From: Vicinamibacterales bacterium
GTDB taxonomy: Bacteria; Acidobacteriota; Vicinamibacteria; Vicinamibacterales; 2-12-FULL-66-21
DNA: 64,000 bases
Reading direction: 5' to 3'
Assembly (NCBI GenBank): GCA_048594975.1
Contig: JBMDXQ010000145.1
Span: 55,284 to 119,283, forward strand
The notes under the pieces are model-generated. The model had not been told where the DNA came from, did not search any database, and saw only the letters and a list, made by a program, of their open reading frames with translations. Shown here piece after piece: positions 27,797 through 63,483 of the stretch (its first letter is position 1; every line of letters begins with the position of its first letter). The position numbers and the translations under genes were made by a program.

Positions 27797-27826
27797 TTGA
27801 CACAGACGAGCTGGATCTGCGAAAAT
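27797..27826 (+). promoter_or_regulatory. Candidate sigma-70-type promoter for the EPS regulator/operon
   Basis: Perfect TTGACA (27797-27802), an 18-nt spacer, then GAAAAT (27821-27826). Lies in the only AT-richer stretch of the 211-nt intergenic region, about 90 nt upstream of ATG 27918. Confidence 0.35.
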
Positions 27827-27917
27827 TCGTTCTGTTCCCCACAATTCGACTTCCCCTGCCCGGCAGCGCGCCCGCGCGGCCCGCTGTGACCGAGAGGGCG
27901 GAGCCGTCCCACCCGCC

Positions 27918-28898: not shown

Positions 28899-28910
28899 AG
28901 GGACGGACCC

Positions 28911-32774: not shown

Positions 32775-32777
32775 CGG

Positions 32778-49472: not shown

Positions 49473-50234
49473 GTGACTGATCCGGTTCGCGACGGGCACT
49501 ACGCGCGCAAACAGATCTACTGTCCGACCGCAGTGGTGGCATGGAGCCATCGCCGCCGGTTCGCCCTGGCCACAGAGCTCGCCGGAGAGAGCTCCGGGAG
49601 GCTCCTCGATTTCGGGTGCGGCGACGGCACGTTCGCGGCGCTGGTGCACGATCGGTTTGCCGCAGTGGTCGCCGCCGATCCGGACGCCGCGCAGATGGCC
49701 GACTGCCGGCAGCGATTTGCCGGCCTCGGCAACGTCCAGTTCCTGCTCACCTCGATGCTCGACGCTCCCTCGCATTCCGGGGCATACGACGTGGTGACCT
49801 GCATGGAGGTGCTCGAGCACACGACCGACGCAGAGCGCCGCCGGGTCGTCGATGCGCTGGCGCGGTACGTACGCGCCAAGGGCCGCATCGTGATCAGCGT
49901 CCCGATCGAGATCGGCCCCGCGCTGCTGGCCAAACAGTTCGTCCGGGCGGTCGCGGCACGCCGGGGTCACGGCGACTACCAGCACCGCGAGACCTACACG
50001 CCGCGCGAGATGGCCGTGGCGGTCCTGGGGCGGCGCGCCCTCGCTCGCGCGACCTACACCGCCGATCGCCCTGGTGGTCCTGTGGTCTACTGCGGGCACA
50101 AGGGCTTCGACTGGCGGGTCCTCGAGGCGGAGATTCGCGACCGGCTGGCGGTCGAGCGCCGGGTGTTCTCGCCGGTGCCGTTTGCCGGCCCGCTGCTGAA
50201 CAGCCAGGTCTGGTTCGTGTGCCGACGGAAATGA
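49473..50234 (+). CDS. Class I SAM-dependent methyltransferase
   Basis: 253 aa with a GTG start. LLDFGCGDGTFAAL, VVTCMEVLEH. Confidence 0.75.
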   Translation: MTDPVRDGHYARKQIYCPTAVVAWSHRRRFALATELAGESSGRLLDFGCGDGTFAALVHDRFAAVVAADPDAAQMADCRQRFAGLGNVQFLLTSMLDAPSHSGAYDVVTCMEVLEHTTDAERRRVVDALARYVRAKGRIVISVPIEIGPALLAKQFVRAVAARRGHGDYQHRETYTPREMAVAVLGRRALARATYTADRPGGPVVYCGHKGFDWRVLEAEIRDRLAVERRVFSPVPFAGPLLNSQVWFVCRRK

Positions 50235-51496: not shown

Positions 51497-52201
51497 TCAG
51501 TCGCGGGGCAGCGGCCGGGCGGCCCGGGGATTTTCGGGAAGCGTCTCGCCGGCGCGCTTCGGAAGGAACCAGTCCACCAGCCGGATCAGCCGGCCGCGTC
51601 GCGTCGGCAGCAACTCCTGCAGCCGCTCGAAGACCATGATCGCGTCCGCCAGCGTGTGCACGACCCCGATGCCGCGCGAGAGCGCGTGCTCCGTGGCGGC
51701 GGTGTCCGGGTCGCGCTGCATCAGCAGCCCCTTGGCTGCCGACGTCGTGACGACATCGACGCAGTTGATCGACAGATCGTCGACAACGATGTCGAGCCGC
51801 AGGCCGTTGGCGATCTCACCGCGCGAGCCCGGCACCGTCAGCACTGCCGGGAGGAAGAACCCGTGCCGCTCGATCCACCATTGCGTCTGGAACTGGACCG
51901 TGTCGCCGGCGCTCGCCGGCCGGTTCGTCAGGAAGAAGACCTCCCACCCGCCCGCCCGCGCCGCGCTGTATAGCCGCGCAATCTGATCGGGCTCGTACGC
52001 CTCCAGGTCCACCCACCAGTTCCTCCGCTGCGCCACCCACTCCCAGACTCGCTTCACGTCCCTCTGCGGGCTCGCGCGCGCACCGGCCGGCTGATCGGCA
52101 TCCCCGATCTCGCGGCCGAGGCACTGCCGCGCGGCGTCGTGAAACGCGGTGCGGAAGTCGGCCAGCACGCCGTCCACGTCGACGCCGATCCTGAGCGCCA
52201 T
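51497..52201 (-). CDS. HAD-superfamily phosphatase, 5'(3')-deoxyribonucleotidase-like
   Basis: 234 aa. Motif I is IGVDVDGVLADF. The start overlaps the stop of the upstream ligase-like gene by 1 nt (TGATG). Confidence 0.6.
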   Translation of the reverse strand: MALRIGVDVDGVLADFRTAFHDAARQCLGREIGDADQPAGARASPQRDVKRVWEWVAQRRNWWVDLEAYEPDQIARLYSAARAGGWEVFFLTNRPASAGDTVQFQTQWWIERHGFFLPAVLTVPGSRGEIANGLRLDIVVDDLSINCVDVVTTSAAKGLLMQRDPDTAATEHALSRGIGVVHTLADAIMVFERLQELLPTRRGRLIRLVDWFLPKRAGETLPENPRAARPLPRD

Positions 52202-53457
52202 CAGGGCGTCGGCGCAGCCGCCTCACGCGACGAGGCGTGGACCAGGATCGCGGCGGCGACCGCGGCGGTGGCGGCATTGGCTGGCGTCGTCAGGCCGGTC
52301 TCGAGCAGGCTCTGGACGGCGACGCCGAACAGGCCGCTCGCCGCGCCCGCTCGGATCCAGAAAATCGGGGTGTCGTCCGAAGCGAGCCGCCGGGACGCGC
52401 CGCGAAGCAGCGCCGCCAGCGCGCCGGCCAGCGGGATTGCCACCAGCAGTCCACCTTCGGAGAGCACCTGCAGGTAGTGGTTGTGCGCCTGGTTGAAGAT
52501 CACGCCCGCCAGGTCACGCTGGTACACGGCCATCGACGTTTGATACGTGCCGAGGCCGGTGCCCGTCAACCAGAAATCCCGGACGACCGCCATCGTATCC
52601 CGCCAGATCGCGGCCCGGCCGGCGACGCTGGCGCCGGCGCTGGCCAGGCGTCCCGTCACGAGCGATGCGTCCATGCCCCACAGGACGATCGCGACCGATG
52701 CCATCGTGCCGCCGGCAATCAGGATCGCCGGGCGCGCCAGCCGGCGCGGCGCGGCGACGAGCCGCCCGCGCGCCAGCAGCGCCGCCACCGCGGCCGCGGC
52801 CACCATCCCGATGACGGCGGACCTCGACAACGAGACGACCGTCGCGGCCATCAGCAGAACGGCCGCGCCAAGCAGCAGCCCGCCGCGCAGATCGAGGGCA
52901 TCCAACAGGCGGCGCTGCCAGGGCGTTCCCGCTCGCGGGCCATGGTGCGCCGTGGCGTGCGCCATCACGTAGCCGGCACACAGCGGTGCGACGAGGATGG
53001 CCCACGTGCCGAAGTGGTTGCGGTTGACGAAGGGGCCGAACGGAGCAGGCCCCTGATCGAGTGGCCGCCACGTCCAGTACATCAGGCCGCGCGCCGTGGC
53101 GTCCTGCGCGACGGCGACGATCGACAGCGTCAGGCCGCTGCAGGCCAGCACGCGCACCACGAGGCGCAAGCCGCCGGCAGCGAAGATGTGCCGCGCGCAG
53201 ACAAACAGCACCAGCGCGCCGCCGAACAGCAGCACGGCCGCGGCCGTCGCGTCGGCATCGATGGTCAGGGGCAGCGACCCGCGCGCGGGCGTCAGGCTCA
53301 GCGCCGTCCCCACGCGTTCGGCGGCGGGGGAAACCGCGGTGCGCAGTAGCGGCGGGAAGGGCACCAGCTGCAGCGCGGCGGTACCGGCGGCGAGTGCCAG
53401 CCAGCGATCGAGTGCCGGCGCCGGACCGCGCCCCAGGACCGCCGGCCGGTACAGCAC
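52201..53457 (-). CDS. O-antigen ligase / Wzy_C-family polytopic membrane protein
   Basis: 418 aa with a GTG start. Many TM segments. FWLTGTGLGTY....Y........AHNHYLQVLSEGGLL is typical of the Wzy_C domain. Confidence 0.75.
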   Translation of the reverse strand: MLYRPAVLGRGPAPALDRWLALAAGTAALQLVPFPPLLRTAVSPAAERVGTALSLTPARGSLPLTIDADATAAAVLLFGGALVLFVCARHIFAAGGLRLVVRVLACSGLTLSIVAVAQDATARGLMYWTWRPLDQGPAPFGPFVNRNHFGTWAILVAPLCAGYVMAHATAHHGPRAGTPWQRRLLDALDLRGGLLLGAAVLLMAATVVSLSRSAVIGMVAAAAVAALLARGRLVAAPRRLARPAILIAGGTMASVAIVLWGMDASLVTGRLASAGASVAGRAAIWRDTMAVVRDFWLTGTGLGTYQTSMAVYQRDLAGVIFNQAHNHYLQVLSEGGLLVAIPLAGALAALLRGASRRLASDDTPIFWIRAGAASGLFGVAVQSLLETGLTTPANAATAAVAAAILVHASSREAAAPTP

Positions 53458-53581: not shown

Positions 53582-55849
53582 CTACGCGGAAACCTGGTTC
53601 TGACCGTAGTAGCTCTTGTACTGATACCCGTAGTATCGGGCGTAGTAGTACTTGTTCCGATCCAGGTCGACCCGGTTGAGGACGGCGCCGATCCCGCGCA
53701 GGCGCCCGGCCCGCAACGTCTCGAGGGCCCGCTCCGCGTGCACCCGTCGGGTCATCTCCGATCCGATCACGAACACCATGCCGCCGAGCCTCGGCGCGAG
53801 GACGGCCGCGTCGGTGACCGCCAGCACCGGCGGGGTGTCGATGACCACCCACTCGAACGGGCCGGTGGCGAGGTTGGCGAGCAGCTGGTTCATCCGATCG
53901 GACCCGAGCAGCTCCGACGGGTTCGGCGGCGTCGGCCCGGCCGTAATGACGAACAGGTTCGGCTCGCGGGTGCGCTGCACGACGTCGCGCACGCGCGACT
54001 GGCCGACGAGCAGGTGCGAGAGCCCGCGCACGTTGGGCAGGCCGACCGTCCGGTGAAGCGCCGGCCGCCGCATGTCGGCGTCGATGAGCAGCACGCGCGA
54101 GCCGGCCAGCGCCAGGGCGAGCGAGATGTTGCAGGCGGTCGTCGTTTTGCCTTCGAGCGGCTGGCTGCTCGTCACGCCGATGATACGCGCCTGTTCGCTC
54201 GAGCTGGTGAACACGAGCGACGTCCGCAGCGACCGGAACGCCTCGCCGAAGTCGTGCGGGACCGTCTCGGTGAGCAGCGGCACGCGGCCGCCGCGTACCG
54301 AGGGGAGCAGTCCGAGCAGCGGCAGCCCCAGCCGCCGGGTGACGTCGTCCGGCGTCTTCACCGTGTCGTCCAGGTACTCGAGGCCGAACACGAGCCCCAG
54401 TGCCATTGTGAGTCCTGCCAGAATCGCGGTGATCAGGTCGCGCCGCGTGTCCGGCGTGATCGGCACTGCCGGCGGTTGCGCCCGATCCATCAGCTTCACG
54501 TTGTTGGCCTTGCTGTTGGCCGCGATCTGCACCTTCTGGTATTCGGTGATCAGCGACTTGTGCAGCTCGCGGCTCGCGTCGGCCTGGCGCTTGAGCCCGT
54601 TGTACTCCGCCGCTTTCTTGTCGAGCGCCGCGACGCTGGCGGTCTGCGCCTGGAAGGTGTGCGCGAGCTGTCCCTCCTGGTGCCGCGCGCTCTCGTAGGC
54701 GCTTCGGTAGCGCTCCTTCGCGCGGAACCGCGCCGCGACGAGCTCCTGCTGCGCGTTCTCGAGGCTCACCTTCAGCTTGCGCATGGTTTCGTGGTTCTCG
54801 CCGTAGCGCTGTCCGAGCTGTGACTGCTCGGCGAGCAGGCGGTTCAGCTCGCCGCGCGCCTTGACCACGTCTTCCGCCATGCCGATGAGCGGGATGAGGT
54901 CGGCCGAGTCGTCGCCCGGCTTCGCTCCGGCGACCTGGTTCCACTGGTTCGACGCGCTGCGCAGCGCCGCCTGCGCGCTCAGCCACTGGGTATTGAGCTC
55001 GTTCAGGCGCGTGACCACGACGTTGGTGCGATCCTCGAGCGACTGCGCGTTCCGGTCCTCCCGGTAGCGGGCGAGAGCGTCTTCCGCCTCGCGCGCGCGC
55101 TGGTCGGCGCTCGCCAGCTCCTTCTCGATCCACCGCAGCGTGTTCGTGGTCGCTTCCAGCCGGTTCTCCAGGTTCTGTGCGACGTACTCCTCGGCAATGG
55201 TGTTGGCGGCAAGCGCCGCGAACTGCGGATCGTGATGCCGGTAGACGATGTTGACGAGCAGCGACGCCTCGACCGGCACGATCGTGACGCGGCTCATGAG
55301 CGCAGTGATCACCGTCTCTTCCCGCGACGCCGGCGCCTGCGCCACAGCCGGGTCCGGCGTCCCGCCCGGACGGGAGAACAGGCCGCGTACCCACACGGTC
55401 AGGCCGCTGCGCGCCTGCCGCAGCAGCGACAGCGGGTCGCGCCCCACCGGGCCGCTGCCGCTGAACAGCGGGTGATCGACCAGCTTCAGCCGCCGGACGA
55501 CGCGCCGCCCGACCTCGCGGCTGCGCATCACCTGGTACTGCGTCGTGTAGTACGCCTCGATCGCCTGGTAGTTCAGCGGGTCGGTCACGCCGATCGCGCC
55601 GATGGACGTCGACCGCTCGTCGCTGATCTCCACCTGGGCCGACGTCTGGTAGATCGGGATCGTCGAGTACGACTGCACCATCATGATCCCGAACACGAGC
55701 AGGAATGCGGTCGCGGCGATGCGGCGGTGCTTGAAAACGGCGTTGAGGCGATCCAGCAGGTGAACGGGCTGGCCGGAGGCCGGCAGCGGCACCCCGGGCG
55801 GCGTTTCCGTGGCACCCACCGCCGCTCGCATCTCCTGGGTATCGAACAT
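53582..55849 (-). CDS. wzc: Polysaccharide co-polymerase / tyrosine autokinase (Wzc/GumC, PCP-2a)
   Basis: 755 aa. Wzz-type N-terminal TM, long coiled-coil periplasmic region and a second TM. Walker A is SSQPLEGKTTTA, A' is LLIDADMRRP, B is VVIDTPPVLAVTDA. C-terminal Tyr cluster YYYARYYGYQYKSYYG. Confidence 0.9.
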   Translation of the reverse strand: MFDTQEMRAAVGATETPPGVPLPASGQPVHLLDRLNAVFKHRRIAATAFLLVFGIMMVQSYSTIPIYQTSAQVEISDERSTSIGAIGVTDPLNYQAIEAYYTTQYQVMRSREVGRRVVRRLKLVDHPLFSGSGPVGRDPLSLLRQARSGLTVWVRGLFSRPGGTPDPAVAQAPASREETVITALMSRVTIVPVEASLLVNIVYRHHDPQFAALAANTIAEEYVAQNLENRLEATTNTLRWIEKELASADQRAREAEDALARYREDRNAQSLEDRTNVVVTRLNELNTQWLSAQAALRSASNQWNQVAGAKPGDDSADLIPLIGMAEDVVKARGELNRLLAEQSQLGQRYGENHETMRKLKVSLENAQQELVAARFRAKERYRSAYESARHQEGQLAHTFQAQTASVAALDKKAAEYNGLKRQADASRELHKSLITEYQKVQIAANSKANNVKLMDRAQPPAVPITPDTRRDLITAILAGLTMALGLVFGLEYLDDTVKTPDDVTRRLGLPLLGLLPSVRGGRVPLLTETVPHDFGEAFRSLRTSLVFTSSSEQARIIGVTSSQPLEGKTTTACNISLALALAGSRVLLIDADMRRPALHRTVGLPNVRGLSHLLVGQSRVRDVVQRTREPNLFVITAGPTPPNPSELLGSDRMNQLLANLATGPFEWVVIDTPPVLAVTDAAVLAPRLGGMVFVIGSEMTRRVHAERALETLRAGRLRGIGAVLNRVDLDRNKYYYARYYGYQYKSYYGQNQVSA

Positions 55850-55876: not shown

Positions 55877-56422
55877 CTACCGCTGTGCGCTCACGGGACG
55901 GACCGCCTCCGGCGCAATCGCGGTGATACCGGCCAGGGCCGCCGCGGAAACCGCGGCCGCGCCGGCGCTGCTGAAGAACTCGGCGTACCACGGCACCTTC
56001 ACGCGGAGCCTGACGAACGTGGCGACCGTCTCGCCGGGCGCGATCGTGAACGGCTGGCCGAGCGCCAGGACCCCACCGCTCTCCGAGACCAGCTCGACGA
56101 GATACGATCCGCTCTCGACGCTCGCGAACGTGAACCGGCCGTCCTCGCCGCCGACCGTGGTCGCCTCGACGCGCCCGGTCTGCAGGTTCCGCAGCCGAAG
56201 CCGCGCGTTCGGGATGGGAGAATTGTCGGCGTACCACGCGGCGCCGAGAATCGACGTCCCACGCCGCGCCGCGGCGCTCGTGGCGTCCGCCTTCGCCGGC
56301 GGTGCCGCGTCGGCATGGCGCCGCGCCGGCGGGTCCGTCCGCGGAGCGGCGGCCGCGATGAGCGTGCCGAGCAGCAGGCAGACCATCGGCCAGCCGACCG
56401 ACCGGGATGCGCGAGTCCTCAT
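55877..56422 (-). CDS. Carboxypeptidase-regulatory-like domain protein (secreted)
   Basis: Internal start MRTRASRSVGWPMVCLLLGTLIAAAAP of ORF-track 55877..56572. NARLRLRNLQTGRVEATTVGGEDGRFTFASVESGSYLVEL. First gene of the wzc operon. Confidence 0.65.
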   Translation of the reverse strand: MRTRASRSVGWPMVCLLLGTLIAAAAPRTDPPARRHADAAPPAKADATSAAARRGTSILGAAWYADNSPIPNARLRLRNLQTGRVEATTVGGEDGRFTFASVESGSYLVELVSESGGVLALGQPFTIAPGETVATFVRLRVKVPWYAEFFSSAGAAAVSAAALAGITAIAPEAVRPVSAQR

Positions 56423-56440
56423 GGAGATACCCGTCTTATC

Positions 56441-56459
56441 GGTTCCCCGGGCGGGAACC
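56441..56459 (-). promoter_or_regulatory. Hairpin in the 5' leader of the wzc operon
   Basis: GGTTCCC-CGGGC-GGGAACC (7-bp stem), 19-37 nt upstream of start 56422. Confidence 0.35.
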
Positions 56460-56910
56460 CTACGACCAGCGCAATTTTGAAGCCGTGTGTGTCCCGGCAT
56501 CGTACCGGCTCGACGCCATGGGACAACCGGAGTGGCCAGCGGAAGCCTCGGCAGCCCCGGGCTTCTCTGCAAGGCGGTAAACCCGTAGAGCCAAAGTACT
56601 TAATGACCATCGCCGCACGGGCGCCCGGGACGCCAGTCGAACCATGTACCGCGCGGTCGACGCACGGCGTCTTCACAGGCGTTCCGGGCGCGGCCCGGAG
56701 GCCCGCGACGCTCATCCACCCGCGGTTCAGAACCGTGATCGATATTGCAGTGCTGTTATCAGCCGGCCCAACGCTGCCACGAGGCCGGACGGCGCTGCGC
56801 GGCGGCCGCGGCAATCCGGTGCGAATCTCGCCAGCCACGCCTGTCTGCAGCGGGCTCCAGCCGAGGCGCGCCGGCCGCACCATTTTGTGGCCGGGAGTTA
56901 CAATTCGCGC

Positions 56911-57189
56911 ATGGCCGTCACGCTGGAGTCCCGTGTGTCAATTTCCGACGACGCGGTTTTCCGCGAGCTCGAGGGGGAGGCGGTGATCGTTCATCTCGAC
57001 TCCGGGACGTACTACGGCCTCGATCCCGTCGGGACCCGACTGTGGCAGCTGATCGACACGCACGGGCGACTGCAGCGTGCATTCGACGCGGCGCTCGAGG
57101 AGTTCGATGTCGAACCGGAACGGCTGCAACACGATCTGCTCCAGCTCGTGTCCGAGCTCGCGCGCCACAGGCTCGTCGAGGTACGGTGA
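56911..57189 (+). CDS. PqqD-family RiPP recognition element (lasso peptide B1)
   Basis: Internal start MAVTLESRVS of ORF-track 56644..57189. AVFRELEGEAVIVHLDSGTYYGLDPVGTRLWQLID is a typical PqqD fold sequence. Confidence 0.85.
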   Translation: MAVTLESRVSISDDAVFRELEGEAVIVHLDSGTYYGLDPVGTRLWQLIDTHGRLQRAFDAALEEFDVEPERLQHDLLQLVSELARHRLVEVR

Positions 57190-57596
57190 TGGGGCGCGCG
57201 AACGCCGGGCCGCCGTTCGCGCTGCGTCTCGAAGCGTACGTGCTGGCCGTGCTCGTCCGCATCATCCTCCGCACCACGTCGCTCAAGCGCGCGGGTGCGC
57301 TGCTCGCGCGCGTGCCACGGCGCCGCGCGGGCGGCGCCGACACCGCCGCAACCTGTCTCGGCGCAGCTTCCGAGGCCGCGGCCCGAGTCGCCCACCCGAC
57401 CTGCCTCTTCGAGTCGCTGGTTGCCTTCGCGCTGCTCGCGCGGCGCGGCTACGACGTCGTGCTCCACGTCGGCGCCAGGCGCGAAGCCGGGCTGGAGGCG
57501 CACGCCTGGGTGACGATCGCGGGTCGCCCCTGCCAGCCGGAAGCGCTCCTCGGCTACACCGAGTTCTGGCGCGTCGTGGCCGCGTCCGGACGGTGA
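57189..57596 (+). CDS. Lasso peptide biosynthesis B2 protein (transglutaminase-like Cys protease)
   Basis: Internal start MGRANAGPP, with a TGATG overlap. CLFESLVAFALLARRGYDVVLHVGAR......HAWVTIAG matches the catalytic Cys/His signature of B2 leader peptidases. Confidence 0.85.
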   Translation: MGRANAGPPFALRLEAYVLAVLVRIILRTTSLKRAGALLARVPRRRAGGADTAATCLGAASEAAARVAHPTCLFESLVAFALLARRGYDVVLHVGARREAGLEAHAWVTIAGRPCQPEALLGYTEFWRVVAASGR

Positions 57597-57600
57597 GCGC

Positions 57601-59469
57601 ATGAGCGGCGTTGCCGCCGTCTTGCGCGCGTCCGCCGACGCACCGGCGGAAGCGGACCTCGGGCCCATGCTCGCCGCCTCGGCGCACCGAGCGCCTCACG
57701 GGACCGCCGCATGGTCGGGTGAGGGCGTCGCGCTCGGATACCTGTCGTTCGAGACGATTCCCGGCAGCGAACCGCAACCGCTCGTCGACCCGTTGCGCGG
57801 CCTGGCGATCGTGTTCGATGGCCGCCTCGACAATCGCGAGGAGCTGGCGACGGCGCTGGACGTGGATGCCGGGACGTCGGATTCGCGCCTGGTACTCGAG
57901 GCCTTTGCCGCCTGGGGACCCGGGGCCGCGCCGCGTGCGCTCGGCGACTTCGCGTGGATCGCATGGGACGCGGTCCGCCGCCGGCTGGTGGCGGCGCGCG
58001 ATCATCTTGGCAGCCGTCCCCTGCATTACTGCGCGCGACCCGACGTGGTCCTCTGCGCGACCGATGTGGCCCAGTTGCTGGCGCATGCCTCGACGCCCCG
58101 GGAGGCCGACCCGGATGTCGTCGCCGATTACCTCGCGCTCGACGTGCAGAACGCCGCCGCGACGCTGCTGCGCGGCGTCAACCGCGTGCCGCCCGGCCAC
58201 GTGCTGGTCGTCGAGCGGGGCCGCGCGTCTCTCCGCCGGTACTGGCGCGCCGAGCCGCGCGAGACGCTGCGCCTGCGCGGCGATCGCGAGTATGCGCAGC
58301 GATGCCGCGAGCTGCTGGCGCGCAGCGTCGCCGCGCGGATGCGGAGCCGCCGTCCGGTGGCGGCGATGCTGAGCGGCGGCGTCGATTCGTCGTCGATCGT
58401 GGCGACGGCTGCGCGGCTGCAGGCGGGGCCGGGCGCGGGCATCGCGCCGTACTCGATGGTGTTTCCCGGCCGCTCGGAGGCGGACGAGCGCGCGTTCATC
58501 GAAGAGGTCGCGGCGCACCACGGCCTGACGGCCGTGCTCGTGGAGCCCGCGCGCGTGACCGCGCGCGCCATGCGCGAGCACGCCGCGCGAACGCTCGACT
58601 GCCCAGCCTTTGCGTCCGACTTCGGCGCCCGCAGCCTGTACGACGCGATTCGCGGCCGCGGGCACGACGTCGTGCTCACCGGCGCCGGCGGCGACTACCT
58701 GTTCGGCGGCAGCGTGTTCCAGTACGCCGACCACCTCCGCGAGTTACGCGTCGCAGCCGCCGTGCGCCAGTTCCTCGCCGACCGGCACACCCAGTCGTCC
58801 GGTTGGTCCCGCCTGGCGCTGTTCCAGGCCGGCGTCTGGCCGCTCCTGCCGGGAGGGCTCAAACGCGTCCTGCGTCCCGCGGCGCGCCGCGTTGCCGGGA
58901 TACGCGACCGCCCGCCGTGGTTGCGGCTTCCGCGGGCGGCGCGACCGGCGACGCCGGAGCGGCAGCGCGGCGGGAGCTTCGCGACCGAGGAAGTGACGCG
59001 CGAGCTGGGGAGCGGACTGCACAGTCTCTTCCTCGAGGCCGGGGAGCGCGAGCTCGCCCGGGTGCCGCTCGAAGCCCGAGACCCGCTGCTCGACGTGCGC
59101 CTGGTGGAGTTCGCGCTGTCGATTCCAGAGACCCAGCGCCGCCGGGGGCCGGTGCACAAGTTGGTGCTGCGCAACGCCCTCGGGCCGGATCTCCCGCCGC
59201 GCGTCGCCACGCGGCGGACCAAGGCCGCGTTCGGCTACGTGATCATGGAGGTGCTCGCGGCGCTCGGCGGCGCCAGCTTCCTCACCTCGATGCGCATCGC
59301 CGAGGCGGGCTGGGTCGATGGCGCCGCGCTCGCGACGGCATACGAGCGCGCGCGGCGGCGGTTCTCCGCCGGCGACCTGCGGTACGGGAACGAGTTGCCC
59401 TGGCTCTGGATGGCAGTCGCGATCGAGTTGTGGTTCGACGCGGTGTTCGAGCGCGCGTCGCCGGGGTGA
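57601..59469 (+). CDS. Asparagine-synthetase-like lasso cyclase (C protein)
   Basis: 622 aa. The N-terminus is MSGV (Ser in place of the glutaminase Cys). PP-loop is VAAMLSGGVDSSSIV. Flanked by B2 and the precursor. Confidence 0.85.
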   Translation: MSGVAAVLRASADAPAEADLGPMLAASAHRAPHGTAAWSGEGVALGYLSFETIPGSEPQPLVDPLRGLAIVFDGRLDNREELATALDVDAGTSDSRLVLEAFAAWGPGAAPRALGDFAWIAWDAVRRRLVAARDHLGSRPLHYCARPDVVLCATDVAQLLAHASTPREADPDVVADYLALDVQNAAATLLRGVNRVPPGHVLVVERGRASLRRYWRAEPRETLRLRGDREYAQRCRELLARSVAARMRSRRPVAAMLSGGVDSSSIVATAARLQAGPGAGIAPYSMVFPGRSEADERAFIEEVAAHHGLTAVLVEPARVTARAMREHAARTLDCPAFASDFGARSLYDAIRGRGHDVVLTGAGGDYLFGGSVFQYADHLRELRVAAAVRQFLADRHTQSSGWSRLALFQAGVWPLLPGGLKRVLRPAARRVAGIRDRPPWLRLPRAARPATPERQRGGSFATEEVTRELGSGLHSLFLEAGERELARVPLEARDPLLDVRLVEFALSIPETQRRRGPVHKLVLRNALGPDLPPRVATRRTKAAFGYVIMEVLAALGGASFLTSMRIAEAGWVDGAALATAYERARRRFSAGDLRYGNELPWLWMAVAIELWFDAVFERASPG

Positions 59470-59555
59470 CGCCGGTCCGGCTGCGGGCTATGATGTCAGG
59501 AGCGAGGCGCGCCGCCTCCATGTCCCGGCGGCCGCGGAGGGCTGGCGGGGGCTGC

Positions 59556-59735
59556 ATGACCGAAGAAAACGCCCGGAACGAAAGGTCCGCGCCGCAGCAG
59601 GTCCGGCCGCCGCGGCGCCCCTACACGTCCCCGCGGCTCATCGAGTACGGCTCGGTCGCCAAGCTGACCCGCGGTCAGCGCTCGGTCAACTCGGATTTCC
59701 CGAAGGCCGGTTTCCAGCGATCGCATTGCCTCTGA
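59556..59735 (+). CDS. Lasso peptide precursor (A), 59 aa, not listed as its own ORF
   Basis: MTEENARNERSAPQQVRPPRRPYTSPRLIEYGSVAKLTR/GQRSVNSDFPKAGFQRSHCL. Exact Y-x2-P-x-L-x3-G-x5-T-x-G leader pattern, with Thr at -2, Gly1 and Asp8. GGAGG lies at 59537-59541. Confidence 0.8.
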   Translation: MTEENARNERSAPQQVRPPRRPYTSPRLIEYGSVAKLTRGQRSVNSDFPKAGFQRSHCL

Positions 59736-59745
59736 GCGTTCCCGT

Positions 59746-60888
59746 GTGTCGCTGATCGTCGATGAGCACCGCGAGTACCTGTCCGACGCGACGCGGCTGG
59801 CCGTGTTCGCGCGCGCGCTCGCCCACCACGTCGCCCCGCAATCGATCGTCGCCGACCTGGGGACGGGCACCGGGATCCTCGCGGTCCTCGCCTGCCGCGC
59901 CGGCGCCGCCCGCGTGTACGCCATCGAGTCGACCGGCATGGTGGAAATCGCCCGCGCCGTCGCGACCGCCAATGGCTTCGCCGGCCGCATCCACGTGATC
60001 AAGGCGGACGTCGCCGAGGTGGCCCTCCCCGAGCGGGTCGATGTCATCGTCGGCGACTTCGTCGGCCGGTTCGGGTTCGAGTCGGGGATCTTCGAGTCGT
60101 ATCCTGCGGCGGCGGCCGCGCTGTTGAAGCCGGGCGGAGTCGTGATCCCGTCAGAGATCACGCTGTCGATCTTTCCGGTCGAATCAACCGGTCTGGACGA
60201 GCGCGTGCGGTTCTGGCAGGCCCCGCGACAGGGCGTCGTCGTGGCGCCGGCGGAGGACTGGGCGCTCAACACCGGCTATCCTGCCGCGATCGGCGCGGTG
60301 GCGCTGCTCGGAGACGCCGTGGAGGTCGCGCGCGTGCCGACCACCTCCGTGACCGCGCACAGCCTCGGCGCTGACGTGCGCCTGGTCATCCGGCGCGCCG
60401 GCGTCCTCCACGGGCTGGGCGGTGCCTTTGCCGCGCAGCTGGCGCCGGGCGTCACGCTGACGAACGCGCCCACCGCGGTCGAGCGCATCGCGCGGCGCAA
60501 CGTCTTCTTTCCCGTTCGAACGCCGGTGGAGGTGACCGAGGGAGACATGGTCCAGGTTCGGATGCGGATCCTCCCGACCGAGTCGATCGTGAGCTGGACC
60601 GTCGAGGTGCGTGCCGCCGATGGTGCCGTGCGCATGCGCAGCGCCCACTCGACGCTGCATGGCCTGTTGATCGCGCGCGAGGACCTGGCGCGCGCCCGGC
60701 CGGATTTCGTGCCCGCGCTGACGCGACGCGGGAACGCGCGACTGACGGTGCTCGCTTTGTGCGACGGACGGCGGACGCTGAGCGAGGTCGAGCGGGGCGT
60801 ATACGACCTGCACCAGGAGCTGTTCGAGACGCCGGCCGAGGCGGCGGCCTTCGTCGCGGAAGTGACCTCCAGGTACGCGCGGACATGA
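59746..60888 (+). CDS. PRMT-fold SAM methyltransferase fused to a C-terminal PqqD/RRE-like domain
   Basis: 380 aa with a GTG start. Motif I VADLGTGTGILAVLACRAGAARVYAIE. Double-acid loop VDVIVGDFVGRFGFESGIFES. LKPGGVVIPS plus a beta-barrel-like middle section (VLHGLGGAFAAQL...TNAP...NVFFPV). C-terminus ARLTVLALCDGRRTLSEVERGVYDL...AAAFVAEV is PqqD-like. Confidence 0.7.
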   Translation: MSLIVDEHREYLSDATRLAVFARALAHHVAPQSIVADLGTGTGILAVLACRAGAARVYAIESTGMVEIARAVATANGFAGRIHVIKADVAEVALPERVDVIVGDFVGRFGFESGIFESYPAAAAALLKPGGVVIPSEITLSIFPVESTGLDERVRFWQAPRQGVVVAPAEDWALNTGYPAAIGAVALLGDAVEVARVPTTSVTAHSLGADVRLVIRRAGVLHGLGGAFAAQLAPGVTLTNAPTAVERIARRNVFFPVRTPVEVTEGDMVQVRMRILPTESIVSWTVEVRAADGAVRMRSAHSTLHGLLIAREDLARARPDFVPALTRRGNARLTVLALCDGRRTLSEVERGVYDLHQELFETPAEAAAFVAEVTSRYART

Positions 60889-61841
60889 AATACTGCGCCT
60901 TCGGCTGCACACTCGAGAGCGACGAGCCGCTTCCGGAGCTGCCGCCGGCGCCCGGTTCGCCGGCGCCGCGGTGGCGCGTGTTCTGGCACGATTCGATCCG
61001 CTGGCCGGCCGCGCTGCGATGGCGCACGCTGTGGGCCGCGGCCCGCGCGGACGGCGGCGTCGCGGTGGCACGCGCCGCGGGCACGTGCTTCCTGCGGTTC
61101 GACGGCCTCGCGACGGCGGCGATCGGCCGCGGGCGCATCGCCCTCGCCCCCGTTCACTCGGCGGATCCCGAGGCCGTCCGCCACGCCCTGCTCGATCAGA
61201 TCTTGCCGCTGGCTCTCGCCGCCGCGGGGGAAACGGTCCTGCACGCAAGCGCCGTGGCGGCCGGTGGCGCCGCGCTGCTGTTCGCGGGCGGCGCGGGGTC
61301 CGGGAAATCGACGCTGGCCGCTGCGCTGTCGGCTGGTGGCGCGGAAGTGCTCGCCGACGACGGCGTGCTGCTCGAGCGCCGCGGCGAGGCGGTCTGGGCC
61401 GTCCCGTCCTATCGGGGCCTGCGGCTGTGGCCGGACGCTGCGGCCGGTACGGTTGTGCGCGGTTTCTCGATGGCGGCGCGGCCGCGTCGCGCCGCCGCGA
61501 TCGAGAAGTATCGTCTCGTGCCGCGCGACGCCGTGATCTGCGCACCGGCGTTACCGGTCGCCGCGGTGTACACGCTGCATCCCGGGTCGGGCGCGCCGGC
61601 GTTCTCCAGGCTCACGCGCCGGGACACCGCGCTGGAGCTGGTCAGACACGCGTACACGCCGGAGCCCGCTGGCCGTGCCGGCGTCGTCGCCCACCTCGAC
61701 CGCGCCGTATCCTGGTCCGAGGGACTGGACGTGTGGCGGCTCGACGCGCCGCGCGACCTCACGAGCCTGCCGGGGCTCGCCGCCGCCGTCCTGGCACACG
61801 CCGGCGCGCGCGGCGCTTCTGCTAGATTACAGACCCGATGA
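60885..61841 (+). CDS. HPr-kinase-related P-loop protein (putative RiPP kinase)
   Basis: Internal start MKYCAFGCTLES of ORF-track 60759..61841, with an ATGA overlap. LHASAVAAGGAALLFAGGAGSGKSTLAAAL is typical of the HprK C-terminal kinase domain. Confidence 0.7.
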   Translation: MKYCAFGCTLESDEPLPELPPAPGSPAPRWRVFWHDSIRWPAALRWRTLWAAARADGGVAVARAAGTCFLRFDGLATAAIGRGRIALAPVHSADPEAVRHALLDQILPLALAAAGETVLHASAVAAGGAALLFAGGAGSGKSTLAAALSAGGAEVLADDGVLLERRGEAVWAVPSYRGLRLWPDAAAGTVVRGFSMAARPRRAAAIEKYRLVPRDAVICAPALPVAAVYTLHPGSGAPAFSRLTRRDTALELVRHAYTPEPAGRAGVVAHLDRAVSWSEGLDVWRLDAPRDLTSLPGLAAAVLAHAGARGASARLQTR

Positions 61842-62680
61842 CACGACAGGTCGACGTGCTGACTTCGGCGACGCTCAAACACCTCCGCGACCGTTGGTGG
61901 GATGACGACTTCACCGAGTTCATGCGGGACACCGTCGCGCCCCGCCCGGGCCAACGGATCCTCGACGTCGGCTGCGGCACCGGCACCGCGGAGGTGCGCC
62001 TGTCGCGGCTGCGCATCTCGCAGATCAACATCGTCGCCGTCGACCTGGTAGTGGAGCGCGTGGCGCAGGCGCGGACGGCGGCGCAGGCGCACAACATCCG
62101 CTCCAGCTTTGCGGCGGCGGACGCCTGCGTGCTGCCCTTCGGCGACGACACGTTTGACTCGGCATTCTGCGTCGCCGTGCTCCAGCACATCCGCGACGTC
62201 CCGCGCGCCGTCCGGGAGCTCGCCCGGGTCACGCGGCCGGGAGGCCGCGTCGTCGCCGTCGAGCCGGACAACTCGGGCCGCTACTTCTACAGCTCGTCGG
62301 ACGCGGGGCGCCGCGCCTATGACGCCGCCGGCCAGTTCTTCGCCACGCTCGCGGAGATCCGCGGCGACGCGACCGACCGCGCCGTCGGGCCGAAGCTGCC
62401 CGCGCTGTTCGCGCAGAGCGGCATCCATCCCCTGCGCGTCCACCTGTTTCCGGTCTCCCGCGCGCAGCTGGGCGCGCCCTCCGATGCCGTCTGGGCGGAG
62501 CGGCGGGCCGCAGTGCGGGACGCAGCCGAGCATGCGCCCGACGACGCGATCGGCCGGCTCGGACGCGATTATCTGAAGCTCCTGGATCGCTACGCCCAGG
62601 AGGCGCACGCCGCCGGTCCGGCGTTCGTCGAGATCCAGAACACGCTGCTCTTCGCTACCGTCGGGCAGCGGCCGGAATGA
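61838..62680 (+). CDS. Class I SAM-dependent methyltransferase
   Basis: 280 aa with an ATGA overlap. ILDVGCGTGTAEV, FDSAFCVAVLQHI, RPGGRVVAVE. Confidence 0.8.
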   Translation: MTRQVDVLTSATLKHLRDRWWDDDFTEFMRDTVAPRPGQRILDVGCGTGTAEVRLSRLRISQINIVAVDLVVERVAQARTAAQAHNIRSSFAAADACVLPFGDDTFDSAFCVAVLQHIRDVPRAVRELARVTRPGGRVVAVEPDNSGRYFYSSSDAGRRAYDAAGQFFATLAEIRGDATDRAVGPKLPALFAQSGIHPLRVHLFPVSRAQLGAPSDAVWAERRAAVRDAAEHAPDDAIGRLGRDYLKLLDRYAQEAHAAGPAFVEIQNTLLFATVGQRPE

Positions 62681-63483
62681 TGGCCCACCGCGGCCCGGGT
62701 GGCGCGGCGCGTCGCGCGCCTCGCGCCGGCGCCGCCGGCTGGGACGAGTACGCGCCGTTCTACGACTGGGAGAATGCGCAGACGGTGGCCCGCCGCGACG
62801 TCGCGTTCTGGCAGCGGCTCGCCGCGGCGCAGGACGGCACGGTCCTCGAGCTCGGGTGCGGTACGGGGCGGATCTCCGTGCCGGTCGCGCGGACGGGCGC
62901 GCGGCTGGTCGGCATCGATCGGTCGGCGCCGATGCTGCGGCGCGCCGCGCAGCGGCTGCGCCGCGTGCCGGGCGCGTGCGCACGGCTCGTGCGCGGCGAC
63001 ATCCGGGCGCTGCCCTTCCGGCAGCGGGTCGGCTTCTCGCTGGTGATGGCGCCGTACGGGATGCTGCAGTCGCTGACCAGCGAGCGCGACCTGCGCGCGA
63101 CGCTGCATTCGATTCACCGGGTACTGCGTCGCGGCGGCCTGCTGGCGATCGACCTGGTGCCCGACCTGCCCCGCTGGCAGGAGTACTCACGGCGCACCAC
63201 CCTCTCCGGGCGCCGCGGGCGCGGCCACCTGACGCTGGTCGAATCGGTACGCCAGGACCGTCGGCGCCGGCTGACGATCTTCGACCAGGAATACGTGGAG
63301 CGCCGCGGTCGCAGCCGCCGGTCGCACCGCTTCTCCCTCGCGTTCCGGACGCTGTCGGTGCGGGAGGTGGCGGCGCGCCTCGAAGCTGCCGGGTTCCAGG
63401 TCCAGGCAGTCCTCGGCGACTATCAGGGCGGCCCGTGGGATGAACGCGCCGACGTGTGGCTCATCCTCGCGGTGCGGCACTAG
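62677..63483 (+). CDS. Class I SAM-dependent methyltransferase
   Basis: 268 aa with an ATGA overlap. VLELGCGTGRISVPVA..GARLVGIDRS, LRRGGLLAIDL. Confidence 0.8.
   Translation: MMAHRGPGGAARRAPRAGAAGWDEYAPFYDWENAQTVARRDVAFWQRLAAAQDGTVLELGCGTGRISVPVARTGARLVGIDRSAPMLRRAAQRLRRVPGACARLVRGDIRALPFRQRVGFSLVMAPYGMLQSLTSERDLRATLHSIHRVLRRGGLLAIDLVPDLPRWQEYSRRTTLSGRRGRGHLTLVESVRQDRRRRLTIFDQEYVERRGRSRRSHRFSLAFRTLSVREVAARLEAAGFQVQAVLGDYQGGPWDERADVWLILAVRH

What the first reader, a model, noticed from the sequence alone, without database searches (positions are those of the whole stretch)
56911..63483. Complete lasso-peptide cluster (B1-B2-C-A) with a kinase and three methyltransferases, wedged into an EPS locus
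Eight same-strand genes are joined by 1-4 nt overlaps or gaps of at most 86 nt. They are a PqqD RRE, a B2 protease (CLFESL...HAWV), an Asn-synthetase-like cyclase (SGGVDSS PP-loop, Ser instead of the glutaminase Cys) and an unannotated 59-aa precursor. These are followed by a PRMT-fold methyltransferase fused to a second RRE, an HPr-kinase-like protein and two further class I SAM methyltransferases. The core machinery is textbook. The tailoring combination (kinase + PRMT-like + 2 MT) does not match any characterised lasso peptide I know. Known tailoring includes C-terminal O-methylation, citrullination, Ser phosphorylation, acetylation and aspartimide formation. No ABC exporter or isopeptidase lies between the divergent wzc operon and the housekeeping yebC gene, so export and immunity are unexplained.
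Basis: partly seen in the sequence, partly recalled or inferred. Interest (0 to 1): 0.88.

Follow-up and report, generated by a model that had tools for sequence, protein, structure and literature searches.

The report
Lasso peptide cluster with Cys-Leu tail
This is a complete, intact lasso-peptide gene cluster from a large family that has not been characterised, and comparing about 170 related loci shows that its arginine-methyltransferase-like enzyme goes with a conserved Cys-Leu peptide end, not with arginine.

Summary
Window 56911-63483 carries eight tightly packed, same-strand genes: PqqD-type B1, B2 protease, Asn-synthetase-like cyclase, a 59-aa precursor (leader YxxPxLxxYGxxxKLT-R, core GQRSVNSDFPKAGFQRSHCL, Gly1-Asp8 ring), a PRMT-fold methyltransferase, an HPr-kinase-like kinase and two class I methyltransferases.

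The interpretation needs revision in four respects.
- **Not a one-off.** The cassette B1-B2-C-A-PRMT-like-kinase recurs in hundreds of uncultured Nitrospirota, Acidobacteriota, Methylomirabilota, Binatota and Actinomycetota.
- **Not an arginine methyltransferase.** The enzyme lacks the second Glu of the double-E loop and the THW loop, and 50 of 74 related cores contain no Arg. Its gene co-occurs with a C-terminal Cys-Leu: 20 of 24 distinct precursors with the gene end that way, 0 of 10 without it (p = 8e-6).
- **Kinase is intact.** It keeps the full catalytic motif of the proven lasso kinase BsfK. A ring Ser/Thr at position 4 or 5 (Ser4 here) is conserved and is its likely target.
- **No second RRE, and not wedged in.** Sequence tests do not support an RRE fusion. 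The lasso cassette sits inside EPS loci, in shuffled orders, across two phyla.

The chemistry remains unproven. I rate it a new variant of a known kind.

The parts
56911..57189 (+). B1: PqqD-type RiPP recognition element (92 aa)
   Evidence: Matches Pfam PqqD at 3e-16. The best NCBIfam hit is lasso_PqqD_Bac, below its cut-off.
57189..57596 (+). B2: transglutaminase-like leader peptidase (135 aa)
   Evidence: Matches NF033537 lasso B2 at 56.4 bits against a cut-off of 33, and Transglut_core3 at 2.5e-15. The Cys (CLFESL) and His (HAWV) motifs are present.
57601..59469 (+). C: Asn-synthetase-like lasso cyclase (622 aa)
   Evidence: Matches Asn_synthase at 2.8e-47 and GATase_7 at 8.9e-20. The PP-loop SGGVDSS is present and the N-terminus is MSG. 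The best NCBIfam hit is lasso cyclase NF033535 at 319.6 bits, below its 525-bit cut-off.
59556..59735 (+). A: 59-aa precursor. The leader is 59556-59672 (ends KLT-R, Thr at -2). The core is 59673-59732, GQRSVNSDFPKAGFQRSHCL, with predicted Gly1-Asp8 ring, Ser4 and C-terminal Cys19-Leu20.
   Evidence: Matches NF033521 lasso leader at 24.7 bits against a cut-off of 19. Homologous precursors occupy the same position in more than 100 loci. The coordinates were re-read.
59746..60888 (+). PRMT-fold SAM methyltransferase with a C-terminal three-helix domain (380 aa). The proposed target is the C-terminal Cys-Leu of the precursor.
   Evidence: The evidence comes (fold and active-site substitutions; co-occurrence with a Cys-Leu end). 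The RRE tests are negative.
60885..61841 (+). HPr-kinase-like peptide kinase (318 aa). The proposed target is ring Ser4.
   Evidence: The conserved motif is H120, G135, G138, G140, K141, S142, D158, D159. Its spacing is identical to the BsfK catalytic motif. The fold matches PEPCK and HprK/P.
61838..62680 (+). MT2: class I SAM methyltransferase, UbiE/MenG-like (280 aa). The substrate is unknown.
   Evidence: Matches Methyltransf_11 at 1.4e-21. It is found after the kinase only in the Acidobacteriota subclade.
62677..63483 (+). MT3: class I SAM methyltransferase (268 aa). The substrate is unknown.
   Evidence: Matches Methyltransf_25 at 3.6e-20. The best NCBIfam hit is the daptide-type RiPP methyltransferase at 86.8 bits, below its 175-bit cut-off. 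It is retained in L088, which lacks the PRMT-like gene.
59466..59494 (+). Sigma-70-like promoter match just upstream of the precursor gene. The evidence is weak.
   Evidence: It is the only match in 7.5 kb, against 0.3 expected from shuffles.
50231..51412 (+). NTP_transf_5 nucleotidyltransferase-family protein (393 aa). It is part of the conserved neighbourhood.
   Evidence: Matches PF14907 at 7.5e-30. This family follows the kinase directly in Nitrospira and other loci. Homologues of the window's copy flank the cassette in Acidobacteriota.
49473..50234 (+). MT4: a fourth class I methyltransferase (253 aa), overlapping the NTP_transf_5 start by 4 nt.
   Evidence: It is conserved next to the cassette in L040, L052, L076, L078 and L088.
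48249..49409 (+). Geranylgeranyl-reductase-family FAD protein (386 aa)
   Evidence: Matches TIGR02032 at 197.4 bits against a cut-off of 158.8. It is conserved beside the priming transferase and the lasso cassette.
46592..48241 (+). EPS priming polyprenyl glycosylphosphotransferase. The coordinates are those of the open reading frame, and the real start may lie further downstream.
   Evidence: Matches Bac_transf at 1.3e-57 and EPS_sugtrans at 1.9e-69.
51497..52201 (-). HAD/NT5C-like protein in the wzc operon
   Evidence: The NT5C hit is weak. The protein is conserved at 51-60% identity in L005, L049, L052 and L075.
52201..53457 (-). Wzy_C (O-antigen ligase/polymerase-like) membrane protein
   Evidence: Matches PF04932 at 3.1e-16.
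53582..55849 (-). Wzc-type chain-length determinant and tyrosine autokinase
   Evidence: Pfam hits are GNVR and AAA_31. TIGR01007 scores 177 bits against a cut-off of 108.
55877..56572 (-). CarboxypepD_reg-domain protein, divergent from B1
   Evidence: Matches PF13620 at 4.2e-8. It is conserved next to Wzc in relatives.

Best explanation
**What it is.** The region is a functional class II (split-B) lasso-peptide operon. It belongs to a widespread, uncharacterised family defined by a PRMT-fold methyltransferase and an HPr-kinase-like kinase placed directly after the precursor gene.

**Proposed pathway. Steps 1 and 2 rest on family membership. Steps 3 to 5 are inferred.**
1. B1 binds the leader through the YxxPxLxxYG...KLT motif.
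2. B2 cuts after Arg(-1). C adenylates Asp8 and closes the Gly1-Asp8 macrolactam around the 12-residue tail.
3. Before cyclisation, the kinase phosphorylates the ring hydroxyl residue, which is Ser4 here. A Ser or Thr at ring position 4 or 5 is conserved across the family. The proven lasso kinase BsfK does the same at Ser3, with help from its B1.
4. The PRMT-fold enzyme has lost the arginine-binding clamp and gained conserved arginines in the same pocket. It recognises the near-invariant C-terminal Cys-Leu with its free carboxylate. It methylates within that dipeptide, on the Cys sulfur or the Leu carboxylate.
5. MT2 and MT3 are specific to the Acidobacteriota subclade and add further methyl groups at unknown sites.

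**Genomic setting.** In Acidobacteriota and Methylomirabilota the operon is a conserved component of a Wzc/Wzy-type exopolysaccharide locus, which also carries NTP_transf_5, a fourth methyltransferase and a geranylgeranyl-reductase-family gene. The peptide therefore probably works together with the polysaccharide rather than as a free-standing antibiotic.
For: **Core machinery and precursor.**

**Family breadth.** The PRMT-like protein has more than 850 homologue clusters, and the 120 best listed are all about 380 aa. The cassette was mapped in 80 GTDB loci and 80 metagenome loci.

**Not an arginine methyltransferase.**
- In the alignment to PRMT6, the first Glu of the double-E loop is an invariant Asp104.
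- The second Glu is replaced by Ala113.
- The THW loop is replaced by R-R-N (R250, N252), and HEEM is replaced by H-R-E-Y.
- 50 of 74 distinct cores have no Arg, and 42 of 74 have neither Arg nor Lys.

**Link to Cys-Leu.**
- 73 of the 74 listed cores found beside the PRMT-like gene end in Cys-Leu (one in Cys-Ile), and each has exactly one Cys. About six further precursor-like ORFs from these loci (L007, L036, L056, L069, L070) were left out of that list and do not end so, which makes about 92% overall; some of them look like frameshifted assemblies.
- In a sample anchored on the kinase, 20 of 24 distinct precursors with the gene end Cys-Leu, against 0 of 10 without it (Fisher p = 7.6e-6).
- In the window's own subclade, L088, L089, L090 and L091 have the kinase directly after the precursor, with no PRMT-like gene. 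Their cores end KKDH, VKKP, ARKP and KRRS instead of Cys-Leu.
- L074 and L055 keep the PRMT-like gene and the Cys-Leu end but have no kinase.

**Kinase.** H120, G135, G138, G140, K141, S142, D158 and D159 are conserved. Their spacing equals that of BsfK residues H148, G163, G166, G168, K169, S170, D186 and D187, which mutagenesis showed to matter. BsfK phosphorylates Ser3 and is accelerated by BsfB1 (PMC10368454).

**Ring hydroxyl.** Ser/Thr occurs at ring position 4 or 5 in 70 of 76 cores, against 39 +/- 4 in within-ring shuffles. It occurs in 11 of 11 cores from PRMT-less clusters that have the kinase.

**EPS link.**
Against: - No experiment supports any step, and all relatives are from metagenomes or MAGs.
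- Four distinct loci keep the PRMT-like gene with precursors that do not end in Cys-Leu: L085, L101, L111 and L160. L069, L070 and L092 add further cases.
- Enzymes of the PRMT/PrmA fold are known as N-methyltransferases. To my knowledge S- or carboxyl-O-methylation has not been shown for this fold.
- The position of the gained arginines relative to SAM was inferred from a sequence alignment, not measured on the model.
- The ring Ser/Thr is not at one fixed position, and Gly/Ser/Thr-rich rings raise the chance level.
- The window's core does contain two Arg (R3, R16), so arginine methylation cannot be excluded for this particular peptide.
- MT2 and MT3 could act on the polysaccharide.
- The cyclase scores below NCBI's trusted cut-off for lasso cyclases.
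Confidence: 0.55

Rival explanations
1. The PRMT-like enzyme is a true peptide arginine N-methyltransferase that methylates Arg3 and/or Arg16 of the core, guided by a fused RRE.
For: The fold and the SAM-binding motifs are those of type I PRMTs. The window's core has two Arg. All Cys-Leu-ended cores of the window's immediate subclade carry Arg or Lys at ring position 3, except two GGGS cores.
Against: The second Glu of the double-E loop and the THW loop are not conserved. 50 of 74 related cores have no Arg. Presence or absence of the gene follows the Cys-Leu end, not Arg. L088 to L091 keep Arg or Lys at position 3 but have lost the gene. The C-terminal domain gives no PqqD signal.
Confidence: 0.1
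2. The PRMT-like enzyme acts elsewhere, for example on the kinase-installed phosphate to give a methyl phosphoester, on a backbone nitrogen or on the ring. The Cys-Leu end is an unmodified functional motif, for metal or target binding, that merely co-evolves with it.
For: The PRMT-like gene and the kinase gene are adjacent, and in the window and its closest relatives they overlap. The conserved arginines gained in the pocket would also suit a phosphate. At least seven loci keep the PRMT-like gene without a Cys-Leu end, and the precursors listed for them keep the ring Ser/Thr. Many tails are rich in Met and Cys, as in Cu(I)-binding motifs.
Against: L074 and L055 have the PRMT-like gene and a Cys-Leu end but no kinase, so a phosphate cannot be its obligatory substrate. 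No Cys-Leu end was found without the gene (0 of 10).
Confidence: 0.17
3. MT2 and MT3, and perhaps MT4 and NTP_transf_5, tailor the exopolysaccharide or its lipid carrier rather than the peptide. Only the kinase and the PRMT-like enzyme are lasso tailoring enzymes.
For: MT2 and MT3 occur only in the EPS-embedded Acidobacteriota subclade. In L004 and L020 other sequence separates them from the kinase. Both are generic class I methyltransferases with no family-level assignment.
Against: In the window they overlap the kinase gene and each other by 4 nt, so they are co-translated with the lasso genes. MT3's best NCBIfam match is a RiPP (daptide) methyltransferase. NTP_transf_5 follows the kinase directly in Nitrospira, where no EPS genes are nearby. 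A homologue modifies the phosphorylated lasso peptide pseudomycoidin.
Confidence: 0.25
4. The cluster is a decaying or silent remnant that makes no product.
For: No exporter, immunity gene or isopeptidase lies in the operon. The cyclase scores below the NCBIfam cut-off. Only one weak promoter-like site was found.
Against: All eight reading frames are intact, with genome-typical GC3 of about 0.9. Catalytic motifs are preserved in B2, C and the kinase. Relatives at 57-85% identity keep the same order and a conserved precursor.
Confidence: 0.05

Closest known systems
Phosphorylated lasso peptides: the BsfA/BsfK system of Bradymonas sediminis, paeninodin (PadeK) and pseudomycoidin (PsmK/PsmN)
   Same: These systems share the split B1/B2, the cyclase and an HPr-kinase-like kinase with the same catalytic motif. 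An NTP_transf_5-type gene is also associated. Their kinases act on the linear precursor, and B1 helps.
   Different: Paeninodin-type kinases phosphorylate a C-terminal Ser, whereas the C-terminus here is Leu. BsfK targets Ser3, and the conserved hydroxyl here is at position 4 or 5. None of those clusters has a PRMT-fold methyltransferase or a Cys-Leu end. They carry an ABC exporter, which is absent here.
Lassomycin-type C-terminal methyl esters (StspM)
   Same: A SAM methyltransferase modifies the C-terminus of the linear lasso precursor before cyclisation.
   Different: According to the reviews, StspM was modelled on mitomycin 7-O-methyltransferase, a small-molecule O-methyltransferase type. 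The enzyme here has a PRMT fold. StspM is broadly tolerant of the C-terminal residue, whereas this family has a fixed Cys-Leu. C-terminal methylation here is a hypothesis only.
Type I protein arginine methyltransferases (PRMT1, PRMT6, CARM1)
   Same: They share the Rossmann domain plus beta-barrel fold, motif I, post-I and even the ELPERVD segment. The profile E-value is 5.5e-45, and TM reaches 0.85.
   Different: The second Glu of the double-E loop and the THW loop are missing. Conserved Arg residues are gained. An extra C-terminal three-helix domain is present. The protein is bacterial and RiPP-associated, and most substrates lack Arg.
HPr-rel-A system and ScmC of the SynChlorMet cassette (NCBIfam and Pfam family names)
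   Same: Each pairs an HprK-related P-loop protein with a PqqD-family peptide chaperone. The window's kinase gives weak hits to TIGR04352 and TIGR04355, and its relatives to PF27840 ScmC.
   Different: All hits are far below the cut-offs and cover only the P-loop region, so the kinase is not a member of those families.
Eukaryotic CaaX processing, as an analogy only
   Same: A conserved Cys near the C-terminus with a terminal Leu is paired with a dedicated methyltransferase. A geranylgeranyl-reductase-family gene lies nearby.
   Different: Cys is penultimate, not fourth from the end. No prenyltransferase or CaaX protease was seen. The resemblance comes from memory and was not tested.

Membership tests
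Lasso peptide biosynthetic gene cluster (split-B type) | PqqD-like RRE (B1) | tested here: met
   Pfam PqqD at 3e-16, 59.9 bits against a cut-off of 23.4.
Lasso peptide biosynthetic gene cluster (split-B type) | Transglutaminase-like Cys protease (B2) | tested here: met
   NF033537 at 56.4 bits against a cut-off of 33. The Cys and His motifs are visible in the translation.
Lasso peptide biosynthetic gene cluster (split-B type) | Asn-synthetase-like ATP-dependent macrolactam synthetase (C) | tested here: inconclusive
   Asn_synthase scores 162.5 bits and the PP-loop is present. The best NCBIfam hit is lasso cyclase NF033535, but at 319.6 bits it is below the 525-bit cut-off.
Lasso peptide biosynthetic gene cluster (split-B type) | Precursor with a YxxPxL...T(-2) leader, and a core with an N-terminal Gly and an Asp/Glu at position 7-9 | tested here: met
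   NF033521 at 24.7 bits against a cut-off of 19. Thr is at -2, with Gly1 and Asp8.
Lasso peptide biosynthetic gene cluster (split-B type) | Threaded lariat topology of the product | not testable with these tools
   This needs MS, NMR, or heat and carboxypeptidase assays.
Phosphorylated lasso peptides (paeninodin type) | HPr-kinase-like kinase with an intact catalytic motif | tested here: met
   H120, G135, G138, G140, K141, S142, D158 and D159 are conserved and match the BsfK motif.
Phosphorylated lasso peptides (paeninodin type) | C-terminal Ser as phosphate acceptor | tested here: not met
   The core ends in His-Cys-Leu.
Phosphorylated lasso peptides (Bsf type) | Ring Ser/Thr as phosphate acceptor | tested here: inconclusive
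   Ser4 is present. Ser/Thr is conserved at ring position 4 or 5 in 70 of 76 cores. No phosphorylation data exist.
Type I protein arginine methyltransferases | PRMT fold with SAM-binding motifs | tested here: met
   
Type I protein arginine methyltransferases | Double-E loop with two Glu, and a THW loop | tested here: not met
   The residues are Asp104 and Ala113, and R-R-N replaces T-H-W.
Type I protein arginine methyltransferases | Arginine-containing substrate | tested here: not met
   50 of 74 associated cores have no Arg. The window's own core does have two.
RRE-fused tailoring enzyme | PqqD-like winged-helix domain in the same polypeptide | tested here: not met
   0 of 24 C-terminal domains hit PqqD at E <= 10. 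The hhalign probability against the B1 family is 0.2%. The model shows three helices and no beta-sheet wing.
Aspartimide-forming lasso peptides (PIMT type) | PCMT-family O-methyltransferase | tested here: not met
   The only hit is a marginal PCMT match for MT2, at 20.0 bits against a cut-off of 20.3. It covers the SAM-binding part alone.

The most novel reading that the evidence does not exclude
A PRMT-fold enzyme has been repurposed from arginine to the C-terminal Cys-Leu of a lasso peptide. It would make an S-methyl-cysteine or a terminal methyl ester, possibly as an activated intermediate for a further C-terminal reaction. The doubly tailored peptide, phosphorylated and methylated, would be a working part of exopolysaccharide assembly or regulation in Acidobacteriota and Methylomirabilota rather than an antibiotic. 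In Nitrospira the Met-rich, Cys-ended versions would bind copper or another soft metal.
Probability: 0.25. Interest if true: 0.8.

Novelty: new variant of a known kind. Interest (0 to 1): 0.6.

Why it matters
- **New chemistry.** Lasso peptides are a well-known class, but no characterised member uses a PRMT-fold enzyme or has a fixed Cys-Leu end. If the inference is right, it would add a new tailoring chemistry and a new substrate class for the PRMT fold.
- **Abundant, uncultured hosts.** The family is common in environmentally dominant groups such as Nitrospira nitrifiers, soil Acidobacteriota and Methylomirabilota. Almost no natural products are known from these groups.
- **Function beyond antibiotics.** The cassette is repeatedly embedded in exopolysaccharide loci. 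That points to a physiological role other than antibiosis, which is an open question for most lasso peptides.
- **A ready experiment.** Natural pairs of clusters with and without the methyltransferase, whose precursors end with and without Cys-Leu, give a direct design for testing the link.

Tried and rejected
- **RRE fusion.** I tested the last ~85 residues of 24 family members against Pfam and the PDB by profile. I also compared them with a 26- to 71-member B1 alignment by hhalign. There was no signal. By eye the segment resembles the helical half of PqqD, but I did not count that as evidence.
- **Arginine methylation as the conserved function.** I rejected this on active-site residues and on substrate composition.
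- **C-terminal Ser phosphorylation (paeninodin type).** I rejected this because the C-terminus is Leu.
- **Compositional island or insertion.** GC content is uniform at 0.70-0.75 across 48-64 kb.
- **Regulatory signals.** The promoter and terminator scan and the inverted-repeat search around the operon gave nothing beyond one weak promoter-like site.
- **Literature.** Eight full-text searches used lasso peptide combined with PRMT, HPr kinase, methyltransferase, Nitrospira, Acidobacteria, exopolysaccharide, S-methyl and Pfam accessions. None found a description of this family. The RODEO paper and the paeninodin paper were not held, so their supplementary co-occurrence tables could not be checked.
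- **Failed or faulty runs.**
  - A first metagenome scan with the broad kinase alignment failed because it had no conserved stretch.
  - A first precursor regular expression had a spacing error and found nothing. I corrected it.

Full report
**1. What is in the sequence**

Window 56911-63483 holds eight + strand genes with the GC3 typical of this 72% GC genome.
- a 1-nt overlap between B1 and B2;
- gaps of 4, 86 and 10 nt around the cyclase and the precursor;
- three ATGA-type 4-nt overlaps joining the last four genes.

Family searches confirm the core machinery:
- B1 is a PqqD protein (3e-16).
- B2 passes NCBI's lasso B2 model (56.4 bits against a cut-off of 33) and shows the CLFESL and HAWV motifs.
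- The 622-aa protein is an Asn-synthetase homologue with the SGGVDSS PP-loop and Ser in place of the N-terminal Cys. Its best NCBIfam match is the lasso cyclase model, though below the trusted cut-off.
- The 59-aa ORF passes the lasso leader model NF033521 (24.7 bits against a cut-off of 19).

The leader ends KLT-R, with Thr at -2. The core is GQRSVNSDFPKAGFQRSHCL, which predicts a Gly1-Asp8 ring and a 12-residue tail.

**2. The tailoring proteins**

*The methyltransferase (380 aa).*
- It is a PRMT-fold enzyme. A family profile hits PRMT6, PRMT2, PRMT8, PRMT1 and CARM1 at 1e-45 to 1e-37 over residues 7-278.
- An AlphaFold2 model (pLDDT 94.7) matches the same structures at E of about 1e-27, with TM up to 0.85.
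- The residues that make a PRMT an arginine methyltransferase are not kept. The first Glu of the double-E loop is an invariant Asp104. The second aligns with a near-invariant Ala113. The THW loop is R-R-N. HEEM in the N-terminal helix is H-R-E-Y.
- The last ~60 residues form three helices that are conserved across the family.
- I found no support for calling that domain an RRE. None of 24 members hits PqqD, even at E <= 10. Nothing relevant appears in the PDB. Profile-profile comparison with the B1 family gives 0.2% probability.

*The kinase (318 aa).*
- It has the HprK/PEPCK P-loop fold.
- Its conserved residues are H120, G135, G138, G140, K141, S142, D158 and D159.
- They sit at exactly the spacing of the motif that mutagenesis showed to be important in the lasso kinase BsfK (PMC10368454).

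*MT2 and MT3.* Both are ordinary class I methyltransferases. MT3's best NCBIfam match is the daptide RiPP methyltransferase, below its cut-off.

**3. The cluster belongs to a large family**

- The PRMT-like protein has more than 850 homologue clusters, and the 120 best listed are all about 380 aa.
- In 80 loci from GTDB species representatives, it is almost always preceded by B1, (B2), C and a small precursor, and followed directly by the kinase. The phyla include Nitrospirota, Acidobacteriota, Methylomirabilota/Rokubacteria, Binatota, Thermoleophilia, Acidimicrobiales, Myxococcota and Burkholderiales.
- Many loci add an NTP_transf_5 gene after the kinase, and some add an ABC-2 transporter.
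- MT2 and MT3 follow the kinase only in an Acidobacteriota/Vicinamibacterales subclade: L004, L005, L020, L045, L049, L086, L087 and the window.
- Close relatives at 69-85% identity have the same gene order, including the divergent wzc operon.

**4. What the precursors show**

I listed 74 distinct precursors beside PRMT-like genes.
- They share the leader Y..P.L.EYG..AKLT.
- The acceptor Asp/Glu is at position 8 in 50 cores and at position 9 in 23.
- Each core has exactly one Cys, always penultimate. 73 of 74 end in Cys-Leu and one in Cys-Ile.
- Including the few precursors I had set aside, some of which look like frameshifted assemblies, about 92% end this way.
- 50 of 74 have no Arg and 42 of 74 have neither Arg nor Lys, so arginine methylation cannot be the conserved role of the enzyme.
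- Ser or Thr sits at ring position 4 or 5 in 70 of 76 cores. Shuffling within the ring gives 39 +/- 4, with a maximum of 52 in 2000 shuffles.

**5. A test that does not depend on the methyltransferase**

That sample was selected through the PRMT-like gene, so I built two samples that were not.

*Precursor homologues.* Twenty members of the window's own subclade came back. Six do not end in Cys-Leu.
- Their contigs show that in four of them (L088, L089, L090, L091) the kinase follows the precursor directly and there is no PRMT-like gene. Those cores end KKDH, VKKP, ARKP and KRRS, where relatives have ...SCL or ...DCL.
- The other two (L085, L092) keep the gene.

*A metagenome scan anchored on the kinase.* I pooled its 80 loci with the contigs fetched through close relatives and precursor homologues (L084-L092) and counted distinct precursors.
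- With a PRMT-like gene: 20 end in Cys-Leu and 4 do not.
- Without the gene: 0 end in Cys-Leu and 10 do not.
- Fisher's exact p is 7.6e-6. The test does not correct for relatedness.

Two further observations fit the same pairing.
- L074 and L055 keep the PRMT-like gene and the Cys-Leu end but have no kinase.
- All 11 cores from PRMT-less clusters that have the kinase keep the ring Ser/Thr.

The simplest reading pairs the two universal tailoring enzymes with the two conserved features. The kinase goes with the ring hydroxyl, and the PRMT-like enzyme with the C-terminal Cys-Leu.

Which atom is methylated is unknown. The candidates are the Cys sulfur, the Leu carboxylate and a nitrogen of the dipeptide. 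The loss of an acidic clamp residue and the gain of conserved arginines in the pocket would suit an anionic group such as the free carboxylate. That is an inference from an alignment, not from measured geometry.

**6. The EPS neighbourhood**

Upstream of B1 lie, on the - strand, a CarboxypepD_reg protein, Wzc, a Wzy_C protein and a HAD-like protein. Beyond them, on the + strand, lie several glycosyltransferases and then four genes:
- a priming sugar phosphotransferase;
- a geranylgeranyl-reductase-family FAD protein (TIGR02032, above its cut-off);
- a fourth methyltransferase;
- an NTP_transf_5 gene.

The same two gene groups flank the lasso cassette in many Acidobacteriota loci, but in different arrangements.
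- In L078, L076, L040 and L067 the cassette lies between the two groups.
- In the window, L005, L049, L052 and L088 it lies after the wzc group.
- In L079 the wzc group lies upstream of the cassette and the transferase group downstream, both in reversed orientation.

Methylomirabilota loci put Wzc, Poly_export and Wzy_C beside the cassette too. Nitrospira loci do not.

GC content is uniform across the region. 'Wedged in' is therefore misleading: the association survives rearrangement across two phyla, which points to a functional link. What that link is remains unknown.

**7. Comparison with what is known**

- The closest characterised systems are the phosphorylated lasso peptides: paeninodin, pseudomycoidin and the Bsf system. 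They share the kinase type and the NTP_transf_5 partner. They differ in acceptor site and lack the PRMT-like enzyme and the Cys-Leu end.
- Lassomycin-type C-terminal methyl esters are made by an unrelated O-methyltransferase type.
- Met S-methylation in longipeptin is attributed to yet another fold.
- Reviews up to June 2026 list no lasso modification matching this family.
- I could not read the RODEO survey, where the gene co-occurrence may have been tabulated without comment.

**8. Verdict**

- The annotation as a complete lasso cluster is secure.
- The tailoring set is uncharacterised, but it is not unique to this contig.
- The proposed mechanism is supported by comparative genomics only.
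- I rate it a new variant of a known kind, with interest 0.6.

Noticed in passing
window 49473-51412: A fourth class I methyltransferase and an NTP_transf_5 gene overlap by 4 nt, 5.5 kb upstream of B1 on the far side of the wzc operon. NTP_transf_5 is the family that follows the lasso kinase directly in Nitrospira and that modifies phosphorylated pseudomycoidin.
   Followed up: partly
window 48249-49409: A geranylgeranyl-reductase-family FAD protein (TIGR02032, above its cut-off) lies next to the EPS priming transferase. The pair is conserved beside the lasso cassette in many Acidobacteriota loci. Its role is unknown, and could be saturation of the lipid carrier or peptide lipidation.
   Followed up: partly
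window 19075-35353: The EPS region extends far upstream. It includes a GT87, an Omp85-like protein, several GT4 glycosyltransferases, a fused E1 dehydrogenase/transketolase-like protein, a sigma-54 activator lacking a receiver domain and a BBP2_2 beta-barrel porin.
   Followed up: partly
window 59466-59494: This is the only sigma-70-like promoter match in the operon (GTGACG-17-TATGAT). It starts within the last bases of the cyclase gene and ends 62 nt upstream of the precursor start.
   Followed up: no
L085 7569-7981: A 76%-identical relative carries two tandem precursors with long basic tails instead of Cys-Leu, yet keeps the PRMT-like gene and the kinase. No frameshift explains this.
   Followed up: yes
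L034 and L035, 1-13300: Two Nitrospira MAGs have the precursor, the PRMT-like gene, the kinase and NTP_transf_5, but no B1 or cyclase within 10 kb upstream.
   Followed up: partly
L040 3340-4479 and L061 2842-3750: Each locus has a second PRMT-like paralogue, next to NTP_transf_5 or methyltransferase genes.
   Followed up: no
L056 12884-13900 and L071 13157-14200: A second kinase gene has its own, different precursor ending in a Lys-rich tail (...KKKKSK), with no PRMT-like gene beside it.
   Followed up: no
L086 11346-12008 and L087 6922-7584: A 2OG-Fe(II) oxygenase gene follows MT3 in a 69%-identical relative. The window has yebC at that position.
   Followed up: no
L001, L006, L011, L017, L019, L021, L029, L048 and other loci (precursor cores): Tails in Nitrospira and Terriglobia are strikingly rich in Met (for example GMGMGMCL and MMMMCL). 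Met makes up 14% of all core residues, which resembles Cu(I)-binding motifs. The window's core has no Met but ends His-Cys-Leu.
   Followed up: no
L014, L042, L046, L058, L060 (after the kinase); L053, L055, L063, L069 (upstream): Many loci encode a second stand-alone PqqD-like protein. It may serve the tailoring enzymes, and the window has only one.
   Followed up: no
L086 5222-7401: Neither the gene calls nor tblastn found a B2 gene between B1 and the cyclase in this relative. B2 may lie elsewhere or may have been missed.
   Followed up: no
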